From: Candidatus Woesearchaeota archaeon
GTDB taxonomy: Archaea; Nanobdellota; Nanobdellia; Woesearchaeales; JAWBMQ01
DNA length: 64,000 nt
Direction: 5' to 3'
NCBI GenBank assembly: GCA_038825875.1
Contig: JAWBOS010000001.1
Span: forward strand, 14,881 to 78,880
A program made the position numbers and the translations under genes. This document shows positions 13,910 through 63,909 of this stretch, in pieces (the first letter of the stretch is position 1; the number at the start of each line of letters is the position of its first letter). The notes below the pieces were generated by a model that was given only the letters and a program-made list of their open reading frames with translations, did not search any database and was not told the DNA's origin.

Positions 13910-14019
13910 GGGGACGTGGTGTAACCAGGCAGCACGGCTGGCTCCAGAAATTGGAGCGCTGAACAATGATGCAGCCTTGAAGAAACCAGCAAATTAGGGT
14001 TCAAATCCCTACGTCCCCA
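13910..14019 (+). tRNA. tRNA-Trp (anticodon CCA) with a 37-nt intron at the canonical 37/38 position (13948..13984); no encoded CCA
   Basis: Acceptor GGGGACG/CGTCCCC, D-arm GTGT/GCAC, anticodon stem GCTGG/CCAGC split by the intron, loop CUCCAGA, T-arm TAGGG-TTCAAAT-CCCTA, discriminator A73. Intron contains CTGA-ACA-ATGATGC. Confidence 0.8.
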
Positions 14020-14059
14020 AGATTAATATTAACAAACAACATAACAATATTAAATTAGT

Positions 14060-14132
14060 GGGCCGGTGGTCTAGTGGCTATGACGTCGCCCTTACAAGGC
14101 GGAGGTCGCCGGTTCAATTCCGGCCCGGCCCA
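14060..14132 (+). tRNA. tRNA-Val (anticodon TAC), no encoded CCA
   Basis: Acceptor GGGCCGG/CCGGCCC, anticodon stem TCGCC/GGCGG with loop CTTACAA, T-arm GCCGG-TTCAATT-CCGGC, discriminator A. Confidence 0.85.
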
Positions 14133-14254
14133 TCGCTTTTTAACATATTAGCAGATAATTGGTCTAATTGTCTAATTAATAAGCAAAGACTTAAAGTGTT
14201 TTATAAACAACAATATTTAAAAATAAGACAGAACTCCCTGCATATGGTGATATT

Positions 14255-58162: not shown

Positions 58163-58690
58163 ATGAAATCAGAGTATGAATTAAAGCAAAAAAGTGAACT
58201 CTCGAGCACCAAATTAAAAATTTTAAAATTGATTGCTATAAAACCCAGAACATTAACTGAACTAAGTGAATTGTTATCTATTGCAAAGCCTTCGGTACTT
58301 GAGCATCTAAGGATTTTAGAAGAAAAACATTTGATTGAAAGAGAAGAAACTGACAGAAAATGGAAATACTACCAATTAACTTTAGAAGGTAAAAGACTAC
58401 TAAGAAATCTCTCTTTAGTTGATATTTATTCAAATATTTTCATTTCAGCAATGTTGGGAACTTTCTGGACAATACTGAACTTTTTACCCAACAAAACAAT
58501 ACAAAAGCAAGAAGTGAAAAGAGTTTTAGTAGAATCATTTTCAGTAAGAGAACCATCAGTAAGTCAAAATATACCTTTAATACTTGAAAAAATCACCTTT
58601 GTACTGTTTATTATTTCTCTAATCTCGTTAATTATCTTGATTATATGGAAATATTCCAGATATAAAAAGTTAAAAAATATTGAGGTGTAA
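58163..58690 (+). CDS. Winged-helix (ArsR-like) transcriptional regulator fused to C-terminal transmembrane helices
   Basis: HTH ..LTELSELLSIAKPSVLEHLRILEEKHLIERE.. then two hydrophobic helices. Confidence 0.5.
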   Translation: MKSEYELKQKSELSSTKLKILKLIAIKPRTLTELSELLSIAKPSVLEHLRILEEKHLIEREETDRKWKYYQLTLEGKRLLRNLSLVDIYSNIFISAMLGTFWTILNFLPNKTIQKQEVKRVLVESFSVREPSVSQNIPLILEKITFVLFIISLISLIILIIWKYSRYKKLKNIEV

Positions 58691-58692
58691 TC

Positions 58693-59415
58693 ATGGATGT
58701 ACCAAGAAAATATGAAAAAAGCACTATTGGAAATGTTTGGGTTGTAGTATGTGTTGTTTTGATATGCCTCTTTGCAGGCTATTATTTTGGTCAAACGCAA
58801 AGAAAAGAAATAAAAAAAGTAAACCTATATGAAACTGTAGAAAAAAAGGTTTTGCCAGATGAAGGGATTGTAGTTTTTGTCATTGAAACAGAAAGTGAAA
58901 ATCCAAATCTAGCAATTGAAGAAAACACAAAAATAAACAATAAAGTTTTAAGAGCATTATCTAACTACAAAGTTGAAACAACACAATATAATCTTGAAAG
59001 AATTCAGAAATGGGACAAGGAAAAAGAGGAATTTATTGAAACAGGTTACAAAGTTAGAAACACAATAAAGGTAACTTCATTACCTGAAGAAATGGGCACA
59101 ATAATAAAAACAGGAATTGAAAATGGAGCAAATAGAATAGAATACATTAGTTATCAGATTTCTCAACAAAAATTACAAGAAATAAAGGCAAATTTATTGA
59201 AAGAGGCAATAGAGAATGCAAGAAATCGAGCAGAAGCCATAGCAATAGCATCAAACACAAAACTAGGAAAAATTTTAGAAATAAGTCCATCTGAAGCATA
59301 TGTTCCAATTTTCAGATACGAAGCAATCTCTTCCTATGAAAAGGACATTCCACAGATAAGTCCTGCAGAACAAACTGTAAGATATGGAGTTTCTATTGTT
59401 TTTGAGCTAAAATAA
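58693..59415 (+). CDS. Membrane-anchored SIMPL/DUF541-family protein
   Basis: N-terminal TM; C-terminal ..ARNRAEAIAIASNTKLGKILEIS...VRYGVSIVFEL resembles the SIMPL/YggE family ending. Confidence 0.45.
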   Translation: MDVPRKYEKSTIGNVWVVVCVVLICLFAGYYFGQTQRKEIKKVNLYETVEKKVLPDEGIVVFVIETESENPNLAIEENTKINNKVLRALSNYKVETTQYNLERIQKWDKEKEEFIETGYKVRNTIKVTSLPEEMGTIIKTGIENGANRIEYISYQISQQKLQEIKANLLKEAIENARNRAEAIAIASNTKLGKILEISPSEAYVPIFRYEAISSYEKDIPQISPAEQTVRYGVSIVFELK

Positions 59416-60542: not shown

Positions 60543-60631
60543 AATGATGTTAGAAATTATTAGGGATTTTTAAATTTTTTTAAATATAACAATATCTTCT
60601 GATTCTATTTTAAATTAAATTGTGTTAAATA

Positions 60632-60763
60632 TCACTCTATGCTTGATCTATCACAACACCATCTATCATCCCATCCGTCATTTATCCAACCTCCATTATT
60701 TTGGCCCCAGTCATCCCAATTGGGATGGGAATTGGTTCCATTCACAAAATTTGTCAATTCCAT
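60632..60763 (-). CDS. Unannotated 43-aa Trp/Asp/Gly/Asn-rich peptide MELTNFVNGTNSHPNWDDWGQNNGGWINDGWDDRWCCDRSSIE: candidate RiPP precursor
   Basis: ATG (60763..60761) 2 nt after the stop of the upstream PEP-utilizer gene, with GGAGGTGA RBS inside that gene's 3' end; TGA stop at 60634..60632 followed by a T-run. 6 Trp in 43 aa in a 30%-GC genome; repeated WDDW / GWDDRW units and a CC pair. Confidence 0.45.
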   Translation of the reverse strand: MELTNFVNGTNSHPNWDDWGQNNGGWINDGWDDRWCCDRSSIE

Positions 60764-60765
60764 TC

Positions 60766-61113
60766 TTATTCACCTCCTTCGTGAACTTGAATTGTTCCAT
60801 CTTCAAAATTAATAACTAATTTATCACCTGTTTTAATTACTGTATCAGCATTCTCAACGCCAACTATTGATGGAAAATTAAGTTCTCTAAAAATAATTGA
60901 AGCATGACTCAACAATCCCCCAAAAGATGTAACTACACACTTAAACTGTAAAATTTTTTCAATATAATCCAAATTAACTCTTTTACAAATCAAAATTTTC
61001 TCACTAGGATGATTGGGCAAATTTTCACAAAATGGATCAACATATGCAATACCTTCAATAATATTATTATGGGGTTTTACGACTACAGATCCTTTAAGTA
61101 TCATTTTTCTCAC
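60766..61113 (-). CDS. Stand-alone PEP-utilizing-enzyme mobile (phosphohistidine swivel) domain protein
   Basis: VVTSFGGLLSHASIIFRELNFPSIVGV matches the PEP-utilizers signature (GG..SHAAI.ARE.G.P.VVG) with the phosphorylatable His; 115 aa only. Confidence 0.7.
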   Translation of the reverse strand: MRKMILKGSVVVKPHNNIIEGIAYVDPFCENLPNHPSEKILICKRVNLDYIEKILQFKCVVTSFGGLLSHASIIFRELNFPSIVGVENADTVIKTGDKLVINFEDGTIQVHEGGE

Positions 61114-62029
61114 ATACTATTTCTTCTTGAATCCTTAATATTGTAGGACTAAGAGAGGGATAATTCTCAATAACATCACTAACCTTAAAATAAGGTAATC
61201 TAAAATATCTGCTTATTGTTATAAAATAAGAAAGTTTTGAATCAAAATCATTATCTGGTAACATAAAATAGAATGCATTGTTGTAATACTTGCAGTTGAT
61301 TATGGGGTCTTGAACATATATATTTTCAGGTGGTTCTAAATTCAAAAGGATTTTTCTTAATTCTTCTGCAGAAATTTTTTTTCTTTCAAAAATTTCTAGG
61401 AAAAGTCTTGTAATATCATAATAACAATCCAAATAAAATCTATTGTAATCAACAAAAGAAAAAAGGTAATAATAATTCAAATTTTCTTTCAATTTCTTTT
61501 TTCGAAATCTCAATATCTTTTTTGTGTTTTTTGAAATTTTCGACTGATCCAAAAACAGATAATGACGTGGCAATGCATAAAAAACCCATCTAAAGGAGAA
61601 AAGAGGTGTATCAAAAAAAGAAGAATCTAAATTTGCATTCAAAATTTCCTTCTCTAATGAATGATAAACTAGGATATAGAGATGATAATAAGTAAGAAAA
61701 TTCAAATAAGATTGAAACATTTTAGAAATTTCAGAGGTATAATTTGCTAAAAATCGATAAAAATAATAATCTAGATTCATTTTTACAATTTCTAATCTGG
61801 GTTTAAATTCAAAATTCTTGGGAACAAGATGATACTTCAATCTATCGTTTAAATCAAAGTATTCCTTATCATCAATTTTAGTCAAATAAAACTTATCATT
61901 CTTCTCTATTATCTCAATTTTTGGTTTTTCATGAAAAAAGCAAGATCTGAATCTAAAGGCAATCTGATTAACAATATCTACAATGTTTTCATTTTTTATT
62001 TCTAACAAACTTGAATCTTTCATTTTCAA
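61094..62029 (-). CDS. Hypothetical Tyr/Phe-rich 311-aa protein, translationally coupled between the rSAM and PEP-utilizer genes
   Basis: No recognisable motif by eye; 4-nt overlap with rSAM gene, about 11-20 nt overlap with PEP-utilizer gene. Confidence 0.4.
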   Translation of the reverse strand: MKMKDSSLLEIKNENIVDIVNQIAFRFRSCFFHEKPKIEIIEKNDKFYLTKIDDKEYFDLNDRLKYHLVPKNFEFKPRLEIVKMNLDYYFYRFLANYTSEISKMFQSYLNFLTYYHLYILVYHSLEKEILNANLDSSFFDTPLFSFRWVFYALPRHYLFLDQSKISKNTKKILRFRKKKLKENLNYYYLFSFVDYNRFYLDCYYDITRLFLEIFERKKISAEELRKILLNLEPPENIYVQDPIINCKYYNNAFYFMLPDNDFDSKLSYFITISRYFRLPYFKVSDVIENYPSLSPTILRIQEEIVCEKNDT

Positions 62030-63258
62030 GATATTCTTTTTGGAGTTTTATAAAATAAATCACTATGTTCATATTTCTTAAAAAATGTTTTTGAAAAGTA
62101 AAACAACAAAGCAGGATTTCTTGTTACATACTCAAAAAAAATCTCTAACCAAATCTTATTATATTCACAAGAGTGTTTCAAAGATTTAAAGGAAAACAAA
62201 TATGCTTTTCCAACACAAGGATGTCTGCATATATAATTAAATTTACAAGTCTCACATCCCAAAGTATCTGAGATTTTCTTTGAAAGGTTTAAAATCTTCT
62301 TTCTATTATCTTGAAAATCCTCAGAATTCATTAAAAAATCCTCTAATCCAATAACACTATCACATCCGTATATTTTTCCATCCATAGAGAATCCTATAAT
62401 CCACTTAAATGCTCCGCAGTTTTCATCATAACACAAAGAACCAGTCATCCCCAGTATTCTTTCAGCATATAATCTAACAGGATCTAATGTTATACTCAAT
62501 CTTTTTCTTAGATAGTAATCAATTAGTAATTCGACATTCCTCCTCACATTTTTTAAATCAGGTAGCAAAGAAAGATTATCTGTTTCCACAATATTATAAA
62601 GCACTCCTTTAAACATCTTATAGTTCAACAGTTTTTTGAAATCTTCAAAGATTTTAGAATCGTTAGTAGTATTAATTAAGTAAATAATTCCAAAGGGAAT
62701 TTTTAATTTTTCAAGAACATTCATTGCTTGAATTGCATAATTAGGATTTCTGGCACAATTCTCACCAAACCCATCAAAACTTAGACCAATTGAAACGTTC
62801 TTTTTATGCAAAAATATGGAAAATTCTTCATCCAATCCATAACCAGAGGTCTGAATTTCAAATCTAACATTTTTCAAGTTTCTTGATTCAAAAACCTCTA
62901 TAGTTTTTCTAATTCCATCTTTGTTTGTAAGTGGTTCAGCGCCATGGAATATAAGAACAACGGGTTTTTTCAGACTTTCAACAAATGAAGATAACTTATT
63001 AATTGTTTCATCTGTTAATTTGTACTCTTTTCTTGTCTCATTCAAAGTATCTAATCGTTTTACAAAGCAATAAGTGCAATTTAGAAAACAATCGTGAGAA
63101 ACATCAAACACAATAGTTAAATGTGGCTCTGCATAATTGTGTGCATTATATTCACTAATCTCTTCTTGAACGACAGGTTCATAACCTGTTCTAGTAATGT
63201 AAAAATGATTTTTAATATTCCAAATCGACCAACACTTGGAATTATAGACTAAATTCAT
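62026..63258 (-). CDS. Radical SAM enzyme with C-terminal SPASM domain (peptide-maturase-like)
   Basis: HDCFLNCTYCF (CxxxCxxC); C-terminal CDENCGAF..GCDS..CETCKFNYICRHPCVG SPASM-type cysteine pattern. Start trimmed to internal Met at 63258 to avoid overlap with aIF2-beta. Confidence 0.7.
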   Translation of the reverse strand: MNLVYNSKCWSIWNIKNHFYITRTGYEPVVQEEISEYNAHNYAEPHLTIVFDVSHDCFLNCTYCFVKRLDTLNETRKEYKLTDETINKLSSFVESLKKPVVLIFHGAEPLTNKDGIRKTIEVFESRNLKNVRFEIQTSGYGLDEEFSIFLHKKNVSIGLSFDGFGENCARNPNYAIQAMNVLEKLKIPFGIIYLINTTNDSKIFEDFKKLLNYKMFKGVLYNIVETDNLSLLPDLKNVRRNVELLIDYYLRKRLSITLDPVRLYAERILGMTGSLCYDENCGAFKWIIGFSMDGKIYGCDSVIGLEDFLMNSEDFQDNRKKILNLSKKISDTLGCETCKFNYICRHPCVGKAYLFSFKSLKHSCEYNKIWLEIFFEYVTRNPALLFYFSKTFFKKYEHSDLFYKTPKRIS

Positions 63259-63392
63259 ATGAGCATAAGTTAATAAGAAATAAAAATTTAAATTAATAAA
63301 TATTACCTTAAGACCACACATTGAAAGTAAATTTAAAGTTGACAACCAAGTTTCCAAAAAATATTTAAAAGAACAGGTAATCCAGCAACGAA

Positions 63393-63806: not shown

Positions 63807-63909
63807 ATTCTTTCCAATTTTCTCTCCTCAAAAATAAAATTTAAAAAAGAACTTTTCTTACTTATAAATACCCAAAAACTAAAAATAAAAACTAAAAATA
63901 AAATAGGTT

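What the first reader, a model, noticed from the sequence alone, without database searches (positions are those of the whole stretch)
60632..63258. Candidate archaeal RiPP cluster: rSAM/SPASM enzyme, unknown protein, PEP-utilizer domain, Trp-rich 43-aa peptide
Four minus-strand genes are translationally coupled: rSAM-SPASM (62026..63258), a 311-aa unknown overlapping it by 4 nt, a 115-aa stand-alone PEP-utilizer phosphohistidine domain overlapping that, and, 2 nt after its stop, an unlisted 43-aa ORF encoding MELTNFVNGTNSHPNWDDWGQNNGGWINDGWDDRWCCDRSSIE. An rSAM-SPASM enzyme beside a short aromatic/Cys-containing peptide is the classic layout of sactipeptide, streptide and darobactin-type RiPP loci. 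The WDDW / GWDDRW repeats recall the Trp-centred cross-link substrates of DarE-like enzymes. No peptidase or transporter lies in the operon, and archaeal RiPPs of this kind are essentially undescribed.
Basis: partly seen in the sequence, partly recalled or inferred. Interest (0 to 1): 0.85.

Follow-up and report, generated by a model that had tools for sequence, protein, structure and literature searches.

The report
Trp-rich peptide maturation cassette, DPANN archaea
A tiny symbiotic-type archaeon carries a four-gene cassette in which a radical-SAM enzyme, a protein of a previously unseen fold and a phosphate-carrying domain travel together with a small tryptophan-rich peptide. The same set recurs in distant relatives, so it is very probably a new family of enzyme-modified peptide, though its product is unknown.

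Summary
Four tightly packed minus-strand genes lie between the housekeeping genes PAN and aIF2-beta: a three-cluster rSAM-SPASM enzyme, a 309-aa unknown protein ("partner"), a stand-alone PEP-utilizers phosphohistidine domain, and a 43-aa ORF. That ORF follows a perfect 8-nt Shine-Dalgarno site and has 5 Trp in 43 residues, against 0.7% Trp in the window's proteins.

The key test, conservation, is passed. An exhaustive HMMER search with the partner found distant homologues in other DPANN-type metagenomic contigs.
- The partner is always next to a PEP-utilizers gene.
- It lies next to, or is fused with, an rSAM-SPASM 35-54% identical to ours.
- It is accompanied by small "MEL..." peptides with the same Trp/Asp core (BLASTP E 2e-9; three invariant Trp; dN/dS 0.18).
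- The two Cys are not conserved.

A sister Woesearchaeota species with the same synteny lacks the cassette, so it is accessory. The partner models confidently (pTM 0.84) but matches no solved fold. The rSAM belongs to no curated maturase family.

Best reading: a new DPANN RiPP-like family, with rSAM cross-linking at Trp and an unprecedented phosphohistidine accessory. The chemistry is inferred, not shown.

The parts
62026..63258 (-). Radical SAM / SPASM enzyme, 410 aa, with three predicted [4Fe-4S] clusters. It is the first gene of the cassette.
   Evidence: PF04055 E 3.7e-13. TIGR04085 SPASM scores 31 bits against a cut-off of 27. CX3CX2C is present. Eight Cys are invariant across the family: C276-x4-C281, C299, C335-x2-C338-x5-C344-x3-C348 and C364. 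The ATG at 63258 fits the N-termini of family members. Best PDB sequence matches are CteB 5wgg and anSME 4k36.
61094..62023 (-). 'Partner' protein, 309 aa (311 aa from the TTG at 62029). It belongs to a new, mostly helical domain family that is fused to the rSAM in one relative.
60766..61104 (-). Stand-alone PEP-utilizers phosphohistidine 'swivel' domain, 112 aa (115 aa from the GTG at 61113). The catalytic His motif GGLLSHASIIFRE is present.
   Evidence: PF00391 E 2.3e-14. The best PDB match is the C-terminal His domain of Listeria rifampin phosphotransferase 5fbs, with the His aligned. The same motif is kept in every homologous cassette.
60770..60777 (-). Shine-Dalgarno site GGAGGTGA for the peptide gene. 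It lies inside the end of the PEP-utilizers gene.
   Evidence: The sequence is shown. It is one of two copies in the window. Comparable sites precede the 'MEL' peptide genes of L006, L009 and L019.
60632..60763 (-). Precursor peptide, 43 aa: MELTNFVNGTNSHPNWDDWGQNNGGWINDGWDDRWCCDRSSIE. The putative leader is about residues 1-12. The conserved Trp/Asp core is about residues 13-35.
   Evidence: Searches cover the ORF and its composition. Homologues lie beside homologous rSAMs. BLASTP gives E 2e-9. Three Trp are invariant in the 8-sequence alignment. dN/dS is 0.18 in the L006/L019 pair. The only strain difference is a synonymous change.
63286..63293 (-). A/T box ATTTAAAT, 28-35 nt upstream of the rSAM ATG. 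It is a possible archaeal TATA box for the cassette (inference only).
   Evidence: Read from the sequence. It lies in cassette-specific DNA that is absent from the sister species. No promoter test was possible, and such strings are common at 30% G+C.
60579..63354 (.). Extent of the DNA present here but absent between PAN and aIF2-beta in the sister species (about 2.8 kb).
   Evidence: L005 (JAWBMQ010000004.1) has PAN and aIF2-beta 140 nt apart in otherwise identical synteny. Flank alignment places the conserved edges at about 63355-63370 and 60566-60578.

Best explanation
This is an accessory four-gene cassette of a Woesearchaeota (DPANN) archaeon that makes a ribosomally synthesised, post-translationally modified peptide.

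Shown here:
- The four genes are co-transcribed-looking and translationally coupled.
- The same set recurs in other DPANN-type lineages: a Trp/Asp-rich 'MEL...' peptide, an rSAM-SPASM, the partner domain and a phosphohistidine domain. Gene order varies, and in one lineage the rSAM and partner are fused.
- The peptide is under purifying selection, with its Trp positions fixed and its Cys positions not.

Inferred:
- The partner (new helical fold, basic and Tyr-rich conserved motifs) docks on the rSAM and presents the acidic precursor. It would stand in for the missing RRE/PqqD-type domain.
- The three-cluster rSAM-SPASM cleaves SAM, abstracts a hydrogen atom from an sp3 carbon of a residue next to a Trp (Asp/Asn is the recurrent neighbour), and joins it to the indole ring. 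That would give several small cyclophane-type rings, one per [D/N]-x-W / W-x-[D/N] unit, each with -2 Da.
- The phosphohistidine protein keeps the catalytic His in all members. It carries a phosphoryl group to the peptide held on the partner, either phosphorylating it or activating an Asp carboxylate.
- The phosphoryl donor is not encoded in the cassette.

The biological role of the product (antagonism or host interaction of an episymbiont) is unknown.
For: Gene set and coupling.

Family recurrence:
- Partner homologues.
- P0017, an rSAM::partner fusion followed by PEP-utilizers and preceded by two Trp-rich ORFs.
- Lineage L009/L014, with two MEL peptides, rSAM, partner, a 620-aa paralogue and PEP-utilizers.
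- Partner followed by PEP-utilizers in L007.
- PEP-utilizers with partner in L012.
- rSAM followed by partner in L013.

Other support:
- The rSAM family is coherent at 35-54% identity, with 8 invariant SPASM Cys.
- Peptide homology and selection.
- Shine-Dalgarno sites before the peptide genes.
- Trp-rich ORFs occur only at these loci.
- The best curated neighbours are peptide maturases, and the nearest outgroup is CbpB with CbpA.
- The catalytic His aligns to RPH His.
- The cassette is absent from the syntenic sister species.
- The partner is a confident model without a known fold.

Precedents from the literature (PMC11851443): rSAM cyclophane synthases act on repeated Trp motifs, and one needs a non-RRE helper protein (WprB/WprC).
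Against: - No modification has been observed.
- The rSAM is below the cut-off of every curated cyclophane, sacti or ranthi maturase model, so Trp cross-linking rests on the peptide's conservation pattern alone.
- The [D/N]-x-W spacing is not uniform across lineages.
- No protease or exporter lies in the cassette.
- No ATP-grasp or PEP-binding domain is present to load the phosphohistidine, and the partner does not resemble one. A phosphotransfer role is therefore unproven, and the domain could be structural.
- Only three lineages give full context, and all the data are metagenomic.
- Any RRE-like function of the partner is a guess.
Confidence: 0.7

Rival explanations
1. Peptide-derived cofactor pathway, in the manner of PQQ or mycofactocin. 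The Trp-rich peptide would be a sacrificial precursor: the rSAM-SPASM cross-links it, and it is then processed into a small redox-active or quinone-type molecule used by the cell, not a secreted natural product.
For: The layout of a small peptide with an rSAM-SPASM and a helper protein is that of PqqA/E/D and MftA/C/B (established knowledge). There is no exporter or immunity gene in the cassette. Trp-derived quinone cofactors exist. QhpD is among the weak hits at 54 bits.
Against: The cassette is absent from a syntenic sister species, which suits an accessory trait better than a cofactor. No dependent oxidoreductase or further tailoring enzymes lie in any of the loci. Peptide genes are duplicated and diverging, as for natural-product precursors. 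PqqE and MftC models are not among the top matches.
Confidence: 0.1
2. The peptide is the substrate, but the chemistry is not Trp cross-linking. The rSAM might epimerise, hydroxylate or otherwise alter Asp/Asn or backbone carbons, while the Trp residues serve only for recognition or for the product's activity. The phosphohistidine protein would be a structural or regulatory subunit without phosphotransfer.
For: The rSAM is equidistant from many SPASM families of differing chemistry. Asp/Asn and Gly are as recurrent as Trp in the core. No phosphoryl-loading domain is present. PEP-utilizers-like domains without a known transfer role exist, for example the C-terminal domain of Geobacillus pyruvate kinase 2e28.
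Against: Trp is the only strictly invariant core residue type, with three invariant columns. It is 16-fold enriched in a genome where its codon is rare. The catalytic His motif is kept in all seven PEP-utilizers copies seen, which argues for retained catalysis.
Confidence: 0.15
3. The small ORF is a chance ORF, and the rSAM/partner/PEP-utilizers proteins act on a protein or small molecule, as an anSME-like or metabolite-modifying system would.
For: anSME is the third-best curated hit and a good full-length PDB match. The peptide has no database family.
Against: Homologous peptides occur beside homologous enzymes in three lineages despite rearranged gene order. dN/dS is 0.18. The Shine-Dalgarno site is perfect. 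The composition is extreme. The anSME score is 65 bits against a cut-off of 349.
Confidence: 0.03

Closest known systems
rSAM cyclophane-type RiPPs: triceptides (XyeB, GrrM/OscB, FxsB, YhhB), WprB, WgkB/tryglysin, StrB/streptide and DarE/darobactin
   Same: An rSAM with a C-terminal auxiliary-cluster domain sits next to a short precursor. The precursor's core repeats an aromatic residue at short spacings with a recurrent aliphatic or polar partner. Several rings per peptide are known (three WPR motifs in WprA). Some systems need a small non-RRE helper protein (WprC) (PMC11851443).
   Different: - The enzyme fails every curated model: YhhB 53/445, DynA 52/450, XyeB 40/450 and FxsB 34/370 bits.
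- The host is a DPANN archaeon.
- The helper is a 300-aa new-fold domain, sometimes fused to the enzyme.
- A phosphohistidine domain protein is an obligatory neighbour.
- The motif is Trp with Asp/Asn rather than Lys/Arg, and its register is not a fixed W-X-X.
CbpA/CbpB (TIGR04164 / TIGR04163), the bacterial 'cobo' peptide and its rSAM maturase
   Same: This is the nearest sequence relative outside the family (about 25% identity, 85 bits). It is likewise a small peptide gene abutting an rSAM-SPASM.
   Different: The score is 85 bits against a cut-off of 375. CbpA (…RKSCNPDGIGLSHYVLMDKK) is unrelated to the Trp-rich peptides. CbpB loci have no partner or PEP-utilizers gene.
Swivelling phosphohistidine domain of the PEP synthase / PPDK / rifampin phosphotransferase (RPH) / PigC family
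   Same: PF00391 is matched at 53 bits. The GG-x-x-(S/T)-H-(A/G)-x-I-x-x-RE motif is kept, with the catalytic His aligned to that of RPH.
   Different: Here it is a free-standing 112-aa protein. No ATP-grasp (PPDK_N) or PEP-binding barrel lies in the cassette. Its constant neighbour is a helical domain unlike the RPH substrate domain or any solved fold. In the literature I searched it is never mentioned together with rSAM/SPASM enzymes.
PQQ (PqqA/D/E) and mycofactocin (MftA/B/C) cofactor pathways
   Same: A small precursor peptide, an rSAM-SPASM and a separate peptide-binding helper protein that is fused to the rSAM in some genomes.
   Different: No PqqD-type RRE was detected. The precursor lacks the Glu/Tyr or C-terminal Val-Tyr motifs. 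There are no downstream tailoring enzymes. The cassette is dispensable between sister species.

Membership tests
Radical SAM / SPASM peptide maturase (generic RiPP rSAM) | CX3CX2C radical SAM cluster motif and the radical SAM core fold | tested here: met
   C-F-L-N-C-T-Y-C is present. PF04055 scores 50 bits against a cut-off of 29.5.
Radical SAM / SPASM peptide maturase (generic RiPP rSAM) | SPASM domain with the Cys set for two auxiliary clusters (C…GX4C…CX2CX5CX3C…C) | tested here: met
   TIGR04085 scores 31 bits against a cut-off of 27. Eight Cys are invariant in the family alignment.
Radical SAM / SPASM peptide maturase (generic RiPP rSAM) | A cognate small precursor peptide gene that co-occurs and co-evolves with the enzyme | tested here: met
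   Homologous Trp-rich 'MEL' peptides flank the homologous rSAM in L006/L016/L019 and in L009/L014. BLASTP gives E 2e-9. dN/dS is 0.18.
Radical SAM / SPASM peptide maturase (generic RiPP rSAM) | RRE (PqqD-like) leader-binding domain in the enzyme or a partner | tested here: inconclusive
   The rSAM core starts at about residue 47 against about 89 in CteB, which is too short for an RRE. The partner has a small N-terminal alpha/beta unit, but no RRE or wHTH match was significant.
Radical SAM / SPASM peptide maturase (generic RiPP rSAM) | Demonstrated modification of the peptide | not testable with these tools
   This needs co-expression and mass spectrometry.
Triceptide three-residue cyclophane-forming enzymes (XyeB, GrrM/OscB, FxsB, YhhB) | Enzyme passes the family HMM | tested here: not met
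   YhhB 52.9/445, XyeB 39.5/450 and FxsB 33.5/370 bits. GrrM is not among the top 25.
Triceptide three-residue cyclophane-forming enzymes (XyeB, GrrM/OscB, FxsB, YhhB) | Precursor with repeated aromatic-X-X motifs | tested here: inconclusive
   W-D-D, W-I-N and W-D-D occur here, but the register differs between lineages. [D/N]-x-W fits about as well.
DarE / DynA (darobactin, dynobactin) | Enzyme passes the family HMM, and the precursor has a W-x-W-x-K-type heptapeptide core | tested here: not met
   DynA scores 52.2/450, and DarE/DarW are not in the top 25. There is no conserved Lys in the core.
Sactipeptide / ranthipeptide maturases (AlbA, CteB, PapB) | Conserved Cys donors in the precursor, and the enzyme passes the family HMM | tested here: not met
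   The CC of the window peptide is replaced by D-N or S-N in L006/L019. PapB scores 68/340 and SCIFF 48/425.
Anaerobic sulfatase-maturating enzyme (anSME) | Passes TIGR03942, with a sulfatase substrate carrying C/S-x-P/A-x-R | tested here: not met
   The score is 64.8 bits against a cut-off of 349. No such motif is in the peptide, and no sulfatase is nearby.
CbpB (TIGR04163) | Passes the equivalog HMM and is paired with CbpA (TIGR04164) | tested here: not met
   The score is 85 bits against a cut-off of 375. The genuine CbpB proteins P0003-P0007 score about 700 bits, each with CbpA upstream.
PEP-utilising enzyme phosphohistidine (swivel) domain | PF00391 above the gathering score, with the catalytic His in the GG-x-x-(S/T)-H motif | tested here: met
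   The score is 53.2 bits against 23.1. The His aligns with that of RPH 5fbs. The motif is kept in all family copies.
PEP synthase / PPDK / RPH-type dikinase (whole enzyme) | An ATP-grasp nucleotide domain (PPDK_N) and/or a PEP/pyruvate TIM-barrel that loads the His | tested here: not met
   Neither is present in the cassette or its homologues. The partner model has no ATP-grasp or RPH-like match. Whether one is encoded elsewhere in the genome was not tested.

The most novel reading that the evidence does not exclude
A new RiPP class confined to DPANN archaea, in which radical-SAM cross-linking of a Trp/Asp-rich peptide is obligatorily coupled to phosphohistidine-mediated phosphoryl transfer on the same peptide. 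The transfer might phosphorylate the peptide or form an Asp acyl-phosphate that drives a further Trp/Asp linkage. It would be organised by a domain of a fold not seen before that replaces the RRE. This combination of radical and phosphotransfer chemistry has not been described for any RiPP.
Probability: 0.25. Interest if true: 0.85.

Novelty: new variant of a known kind. Interest (0 to 1): 0.72.

Why it matters
No radical-SAM-modified peptide from any archaeon has a known structure. DPANN archaea are reduced-genome episymbionts for which almost no specialised metabolism is known.

This cassette is small (2.8 kb, four genes) and self-contained. It comes with natural variants, namely a fusion, duplicated precursors and a degenerate paralogue, which define what is essential. 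It is therefore directly testable by heterologous co-expression.

It adds two things to the RiPP field:
- a 300-residue helper domain of unknown fold that always accompanies the enzyme;
- a free-standing phosphohistidine domain that is not described with rSAM/SPASM enzymes in the literature I could search.

If the phosphohistidine protein acts on the peptide, that would be a new way of tailoring ribosomal peptides. The product might also mediate DPANN-host or DPANN-competitor interactions.

Tried and rejected
- **Word-indexed protein searches.** The partner and the peptide found only themselves, and the rSAM found only CbpB at 25% identity. The family was invisible until the exhaustive HMMER search.
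- **AlphaFold on the partner alone.** This gave pLDDT 39 and was useless.
- **PDB sequence searches with the partner.** Neither the single sequence nor the profile found anything.
- **Pfam on all partner members at E up to 10.** Nothing was found.
- **Hypothesis that the partner is the missing ATP-grasp or an RPH-like substrate domain.** Rejected on the fold searches.
- **Hypothesis that the 269-aa protein paired with a second PEP-utilizers gene in L006 is a partner homologue.** Rejected: hhalign probability 0.2%.
- **Metagenome scans.** The scan with the partner alignment failed for lack of conserved stretches or found nothing. The second scan, with the rSAM alignment, returned only lineages already known plus one unrelated SPASM.
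- **Defence-system and phage libraries.** Only generic rSAM or kinase matches.
- **Viral contigs.** No family member.
- **Rfam.** Nothing in the region.
- **Bacterial promoter/terminator scan.** Uninformative for an archaeon.
- **Literature.** No paper combines PEP-utilizing with radical SAM/SPASM/RiPP.
- **Thioether (Cys) chemistry.** Considered and dropped because the Cys are not conserved.


Full report
**1. What is in the window**

Between 60632 and 63258 the minus strand carries four ORFs packed end to end.

The first, 62026..63258, is a 410-aa radical SAM enzyme.
- It has the CX3CX2C motif and matches Pfam PF04055 at E 3.7e-13.
- It has a full SPASM domain: TIGR04085 scores 31 bits against a cut-off of 27.
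- The domain shows the pattern C-x4-C … G-x4-C … CX2CX5CX3C … C.

The second is a 309/311-aa protein with no Pfam or NCBIfam match.

The third is a 112/115-aa stand-alone PEP-utilizers mobile domain (PF00391, E 2.3e-14).

It is preceded at 6 nt by GGAGGTGA, a perfect 8-nt Shine-Dalgarno site and one of only two copies in 64 kb.

With the start codons chosen by NCBI and Prodigal:
- the second gene begins 2 nt after the rSAM stop;
- the third gene overlaps the second by 11 nt.

The coupling is therefore as tight as described, with small differences of detail.

The source is a MAG labelled Candidatus Woesearchaeota archaeon, a DPANN lineage. The four proteins, including the 43-aa one, are in NCBI as MEM2115412-15 and MEM4500204-07.

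**2. Is the small ORF real?**

Its composition is very unusual for this genome.
- It has 5 Trp in 43 residues (11.6%), against 0.73% in 51 long ORFs of the window. The binomial P is about 1.6e-5.
- No 43-residue stretch of those proteins has more than 3 Trp.
- The ORF is 41% G+C in a roughly 30% G+C genome.

A six-frame scan found no other ORF in the window with 5 Trp in 30 residues.

A strain 99.1% identical (L002) differs in the ORF by a single synonymous change. That comparison is too close to say much.

**3. Finding relatives**

Word-indexed searches of 5.8 billion proteins returned only the same organism for the unknown protein and for the peptide. For the rSAM they returned only bacterial proteins about 25% identical. 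These proved to be genuine CbpB maturases (about 700 bits on TIGR04163), each with a CbpA peptide gene abutting it. The window's rSAM scores 85 bits against the CbpB cut-off of 375, so it is not a CbpB.

The exhaustive HMMER search of 1.84 billion representatives with the unknown protein found five true homologues: P0017 (736 aa), P0018, P0019, P0020 and the fragment P0021. I call this protein the "partner".

P0017 is a natural fusion. Its N-terminal 445 residues are an rSAM-SPASM and its C-terminal 290 residues are the partner domain.

**4. Genomic context of the relatives**

| Lineage | Loci | Gene order |
|---|---|---|
| DPANN close to 'Candidatus ainarchaeum' MAGs, by a neighbouring Csa3 protein | L006/L016/L017; related L019 | Two small Trp-rich ORFs, then the rSAM::partner fusion, then an overlapping 111-aa PEP-utilizers gene |
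| Third lineage | L009, L014, L015, L008, L010, L011 | Two small ORFs, rSAM (429 aa), partner (320 aa), a 620-aa protein, PEP-utilizers (112 aa) |
| Short contig | L007 | Partner, then PEP-utilizers (E 1.9e-20) |
| Short contig | L012 | PEP-utilizers, a 42-aa ORF, partner |
| Short contig | L013 | An rSAM 54% identical to ours, then partner |

In the third lineage the C-terminal half of the 620-aa protein is partner-like (hhalign probability 96%, E 3e-9). Its N-terminal half is a weak, cluster-less rSAM-like region.

The partner is therefore always beside a PEP-utilizers gene. Wherever the upstream DNA is available, it is also beside or fused to an rSAM of one coherent family. That family shares 35-54% identity and eight invariant SPASM Cys.

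**5. The peptides**

| Locus | Peptide |
|---|---|
| Window | MELTNFVNGTNSHPNWDDWGQNNGGWINDGWDDRWCCDRSSIE |
| L006 | MELIDKNNEKYRFDHPNWGDNWGTNHGGWNGDGWTDKWDNNNK |
| L019 | MELLNKNDEKYRCDHPNWGDNWGNDHGGWNSDGWNDKWSNSSK |
| L009 | MELCVVDNKFLKENGPVVGDTWSDWTGDYWNNDWSSDYN |
| L009 | MELCVTNKKFINFTEEITVTDTWQGDKWNNSWSSDWSCDY |

L006 and L019 also carry a second, more divergent Trp-rich paralogue.

Evidence that these peptides are homologous and under selection:
- The window peptide against the L006 peptide gives BLASTP E 2e-9 with composition correction, and 67% identity over the 24-residue core.
- In the eight-sequence alignment three Trp columns are invariant. The consensus reads MEL…PNW-GD-W…W--D-W-D-W.
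- The two Cys of the window peptide are not conserved.
- Between L006 and L019 the peptide gene has dS 0.67 and dN 0.12, so dN/dS is 0.18. That is comparable with the enzymes (0.12-0.14). The paralogue gives 0.35.
- Strong Shine-Dalgarno sites precede the MEL peptide genes in four lineages.
- In these A+T-rich loci, Trp-rich ORFs occur essentially only beside the rSAM.

**6. The cassette is accessory**

A genome scan with the neighbouring aIF2-beta found one related species, JAWBMQ010000004.1 (Woesearchaeota, 82% identity). It has the same gene order: FtsZ, S3Ae, an HTH-membrane protein, a SIMPL-like protein, PAN and aIF2-beta. There, PAN and aIF2-beta are only 140 nt apart.

Aligning the flanks places about 2.8 kb (roughly 60579..63354) as DNA present only in the window. 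Its G+C content equals that of the genome. No family member was found in viral contigs.

**7. The enzymes**

*rSAM.* Its best curated matches are peptide maturases, all far below their cut-offs:

| Model | Bits | Cut-off |
|---|---|---|
| CbpB | 85 | 375 |
| PapB | 68 | 340 |
| nif11 | 61 | 518.7 |
| HxsB | 58 | 370 |
| YhhB | 53 | 445 |
| DynA | 52 | 450 |
| anSME | 65 | 349 |

The best solved relatives are CteB and anSME. The N-terminal extension before the core is about 45 residues, too short for an RRE.

*PEP-utilizers protein.* It aligns best to the C-terminal His-swivel domain of Listeria rifampin phosphotransferase (5fbs), with the catalytic His conserved: GGLLSHASIIFRE against GGLMTHGAVIAREY. 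All seven copies seen in the family keep GG-x-LSH-x-x-I-x-x-RE.

No ATP-grasp or PEP-binding domain occurs in any of the loci.

*Partner.*
- Folded alone it gave a useless model (pLDDT 39).
- With the 7-sequence alignment it gave pLDDT 82.9 and pTM 0.84. The model has a small N-terminal alpha/beta unit followed by long helices.
- Foldseek against PDB gave a best E of about 1.
- BFVD, PDB sequence profiles and Pfam gave nothing.

The partner is thus a new domain family with no recognisable solved fold. It is neither an ATP-grasp nor like the RPH substrate domain.

**8. How it most likely works**

*Shown here:*
- A conserved functional unit comprises precursor peptide(s), an rSAM-SPASM, the partner and a phosphohistidine protein.
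- The rSAM and partner are physically linked in one lineage.
- Selection acts on the peptide's Trp positions.

*Inferred:*
- The partner docks the acidic, aromatic precursor onto the rSAM. A non-RRE helper being required has a precedent in WprC (PMC11851443).
- The rSAM forms bonds between Trp rings and sp3 carbons of nearby residues at several sites, as rSAM cyclophane synthases do on repeated three- to five-residue motifs (same paper).
- Asp/Asn is the recurrent neighbour, in [D/N]-x-W or W-x-[D/N] units.
- The phosphohistidine protein transfers a phosphoryl group to something held on the partner, most simply the peptide.
- The donor is not in the cassette.

I put about 0.7 on the RiPP-like system as a whole. 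I put about 0.4-0.5 on Trp cross-linking specifically, and about 0.3 on a true phosphotransfer to the peptide.

**9. Rivals**

- A PQQ/mycofactocin-like cofactor pathway has the same layout. It fits poorly with the cassette's absence from a sister species and with the duplicated, diverging precursors.
- Chemistry other than Trp cross-linking, with a merely structural His-domain protein, cannot be excluded.
- A chance ORF with a protein or small-molecule substrate is effectively excluded by the conservation data.

**10. Comparison with what is known, and novelty**

The general kind, an rSAM-SPASM plus a short precursor, is well known. rSAM RiPP clusters have been predicted in DPANN by antiSMASH surveys (PMC12144867).

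What is new:
- the precursor family;
- the enzyme clade, which passes no curated model;
- the helper domain of unknown fold;
- the obligatory phosphohistidine domain.

For the last of these, no paper in the searchable library mentions PEP-utilizing enzymes together with radical SAM/SPASM or RiPPs. I therefore rate it a new variant of a known kind.

**11. Limits**

- All the evidence is from sequence.
- Only three lineages give full context, plus three partial ones.
- The AlphaFold database could not be searched.
- The rest of the genome was not examined for a phosphoryl-loading domain.

Noticed in passing
L006 10973-12065 and L019 4268-5373: A second conserved gene pair lies just downstream of the cassette: a 269-aa protein with no family, followed by a 92-aa PEP-utilizers domain that keeps the His motif (GSKLSHISIFLRE). 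The 269-aa protein is not a partner homologue (hhalign probability 0.2%). The pair is under purifying selection (dN/dS 0.14-0.17). It may be a second type of 'unknown protein plus phosphohistidine domain' module.
   Followed up: partly
L008 1783-3645 (also L009, L010, L011, L014): This 620-aa protein sits between the partner and the PEP-utilizers gene. Its C-terminal half is partner-like (hhalign 96%). Its N-terminal half weakly resembles the rSAM barrel but lacks the cluster Cys. It looks like a degenerate duplicate of an rSAM::partner fusion.
   Followed up: partly
L006 1-6808 and 12066-13400: In the Iainarchaeota-like contig the cassette sits among defence or conflict-type genes. These include a Csa3-like CARF protein, two SLFN/AlbA_2 plus HATPase proteins, a UvrD helicase with a PD-(D/E)XK nuclease, a Bro-N protein and an ASCH protein. 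An M16 peptidase (404 aa) lies 2.5 kb upstream on the other strand and could be a leader peptidase.
   Followed up: no
L012 447-575: A 42-aa basic ORF (MNERRVKEKKNWLNEATKREVLLAYSRPSRGFKVKELIEVLK) overlaps by 4 nt both the PEP-utilizers gene before it and the partner gene after it. It is not Trp-rich, and its role is unknown.
   Followed up: no
window 13910-14019 (+): Rfam's tRNA model matches a 110-nt stretch at 51 bits that ARAGORN does not call. It is probably an intron-containing archaeal tRNA, and it lies just upstream of tRNA-Val (14059-14134).
   Followed up: no
window 63891-63903: A 13-nt A/T-rich indel separates this strain from the 99%-identical strain L002. It lies in the spacer between aIF2-beta and tRNA-Thr. 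The rSAM gene shows 6 synonymous and 6 non-synonymous differences between the two strains, a higher non-synonymous share than in its neighbours.
   Followed up: partly
L003 5849-7380 and L004 5846-7377: These bacterial CbpA/CbpB pairs have the peptide gene overlapping the maturase gene by 4 nt. They have near-identical CbpA cores (…IAVRKSCNPDGIGLSHYVLMDKKAAK) in two unrelated contexts. CbpB chemistry is, to my knowledge, still uncharacterised.
   Followed up: no
window 58163-59415 and L005 5466-6720: A conserved pair sits between S3Ae and PAN in both Woesearchaeota species. It comprises an HTH protein with a C-terminal membrane segment and a SIMPL/DUF541-like protein. It is unrelated to the cassette but is part of the stable synteny that frames it.
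   Followed up: no
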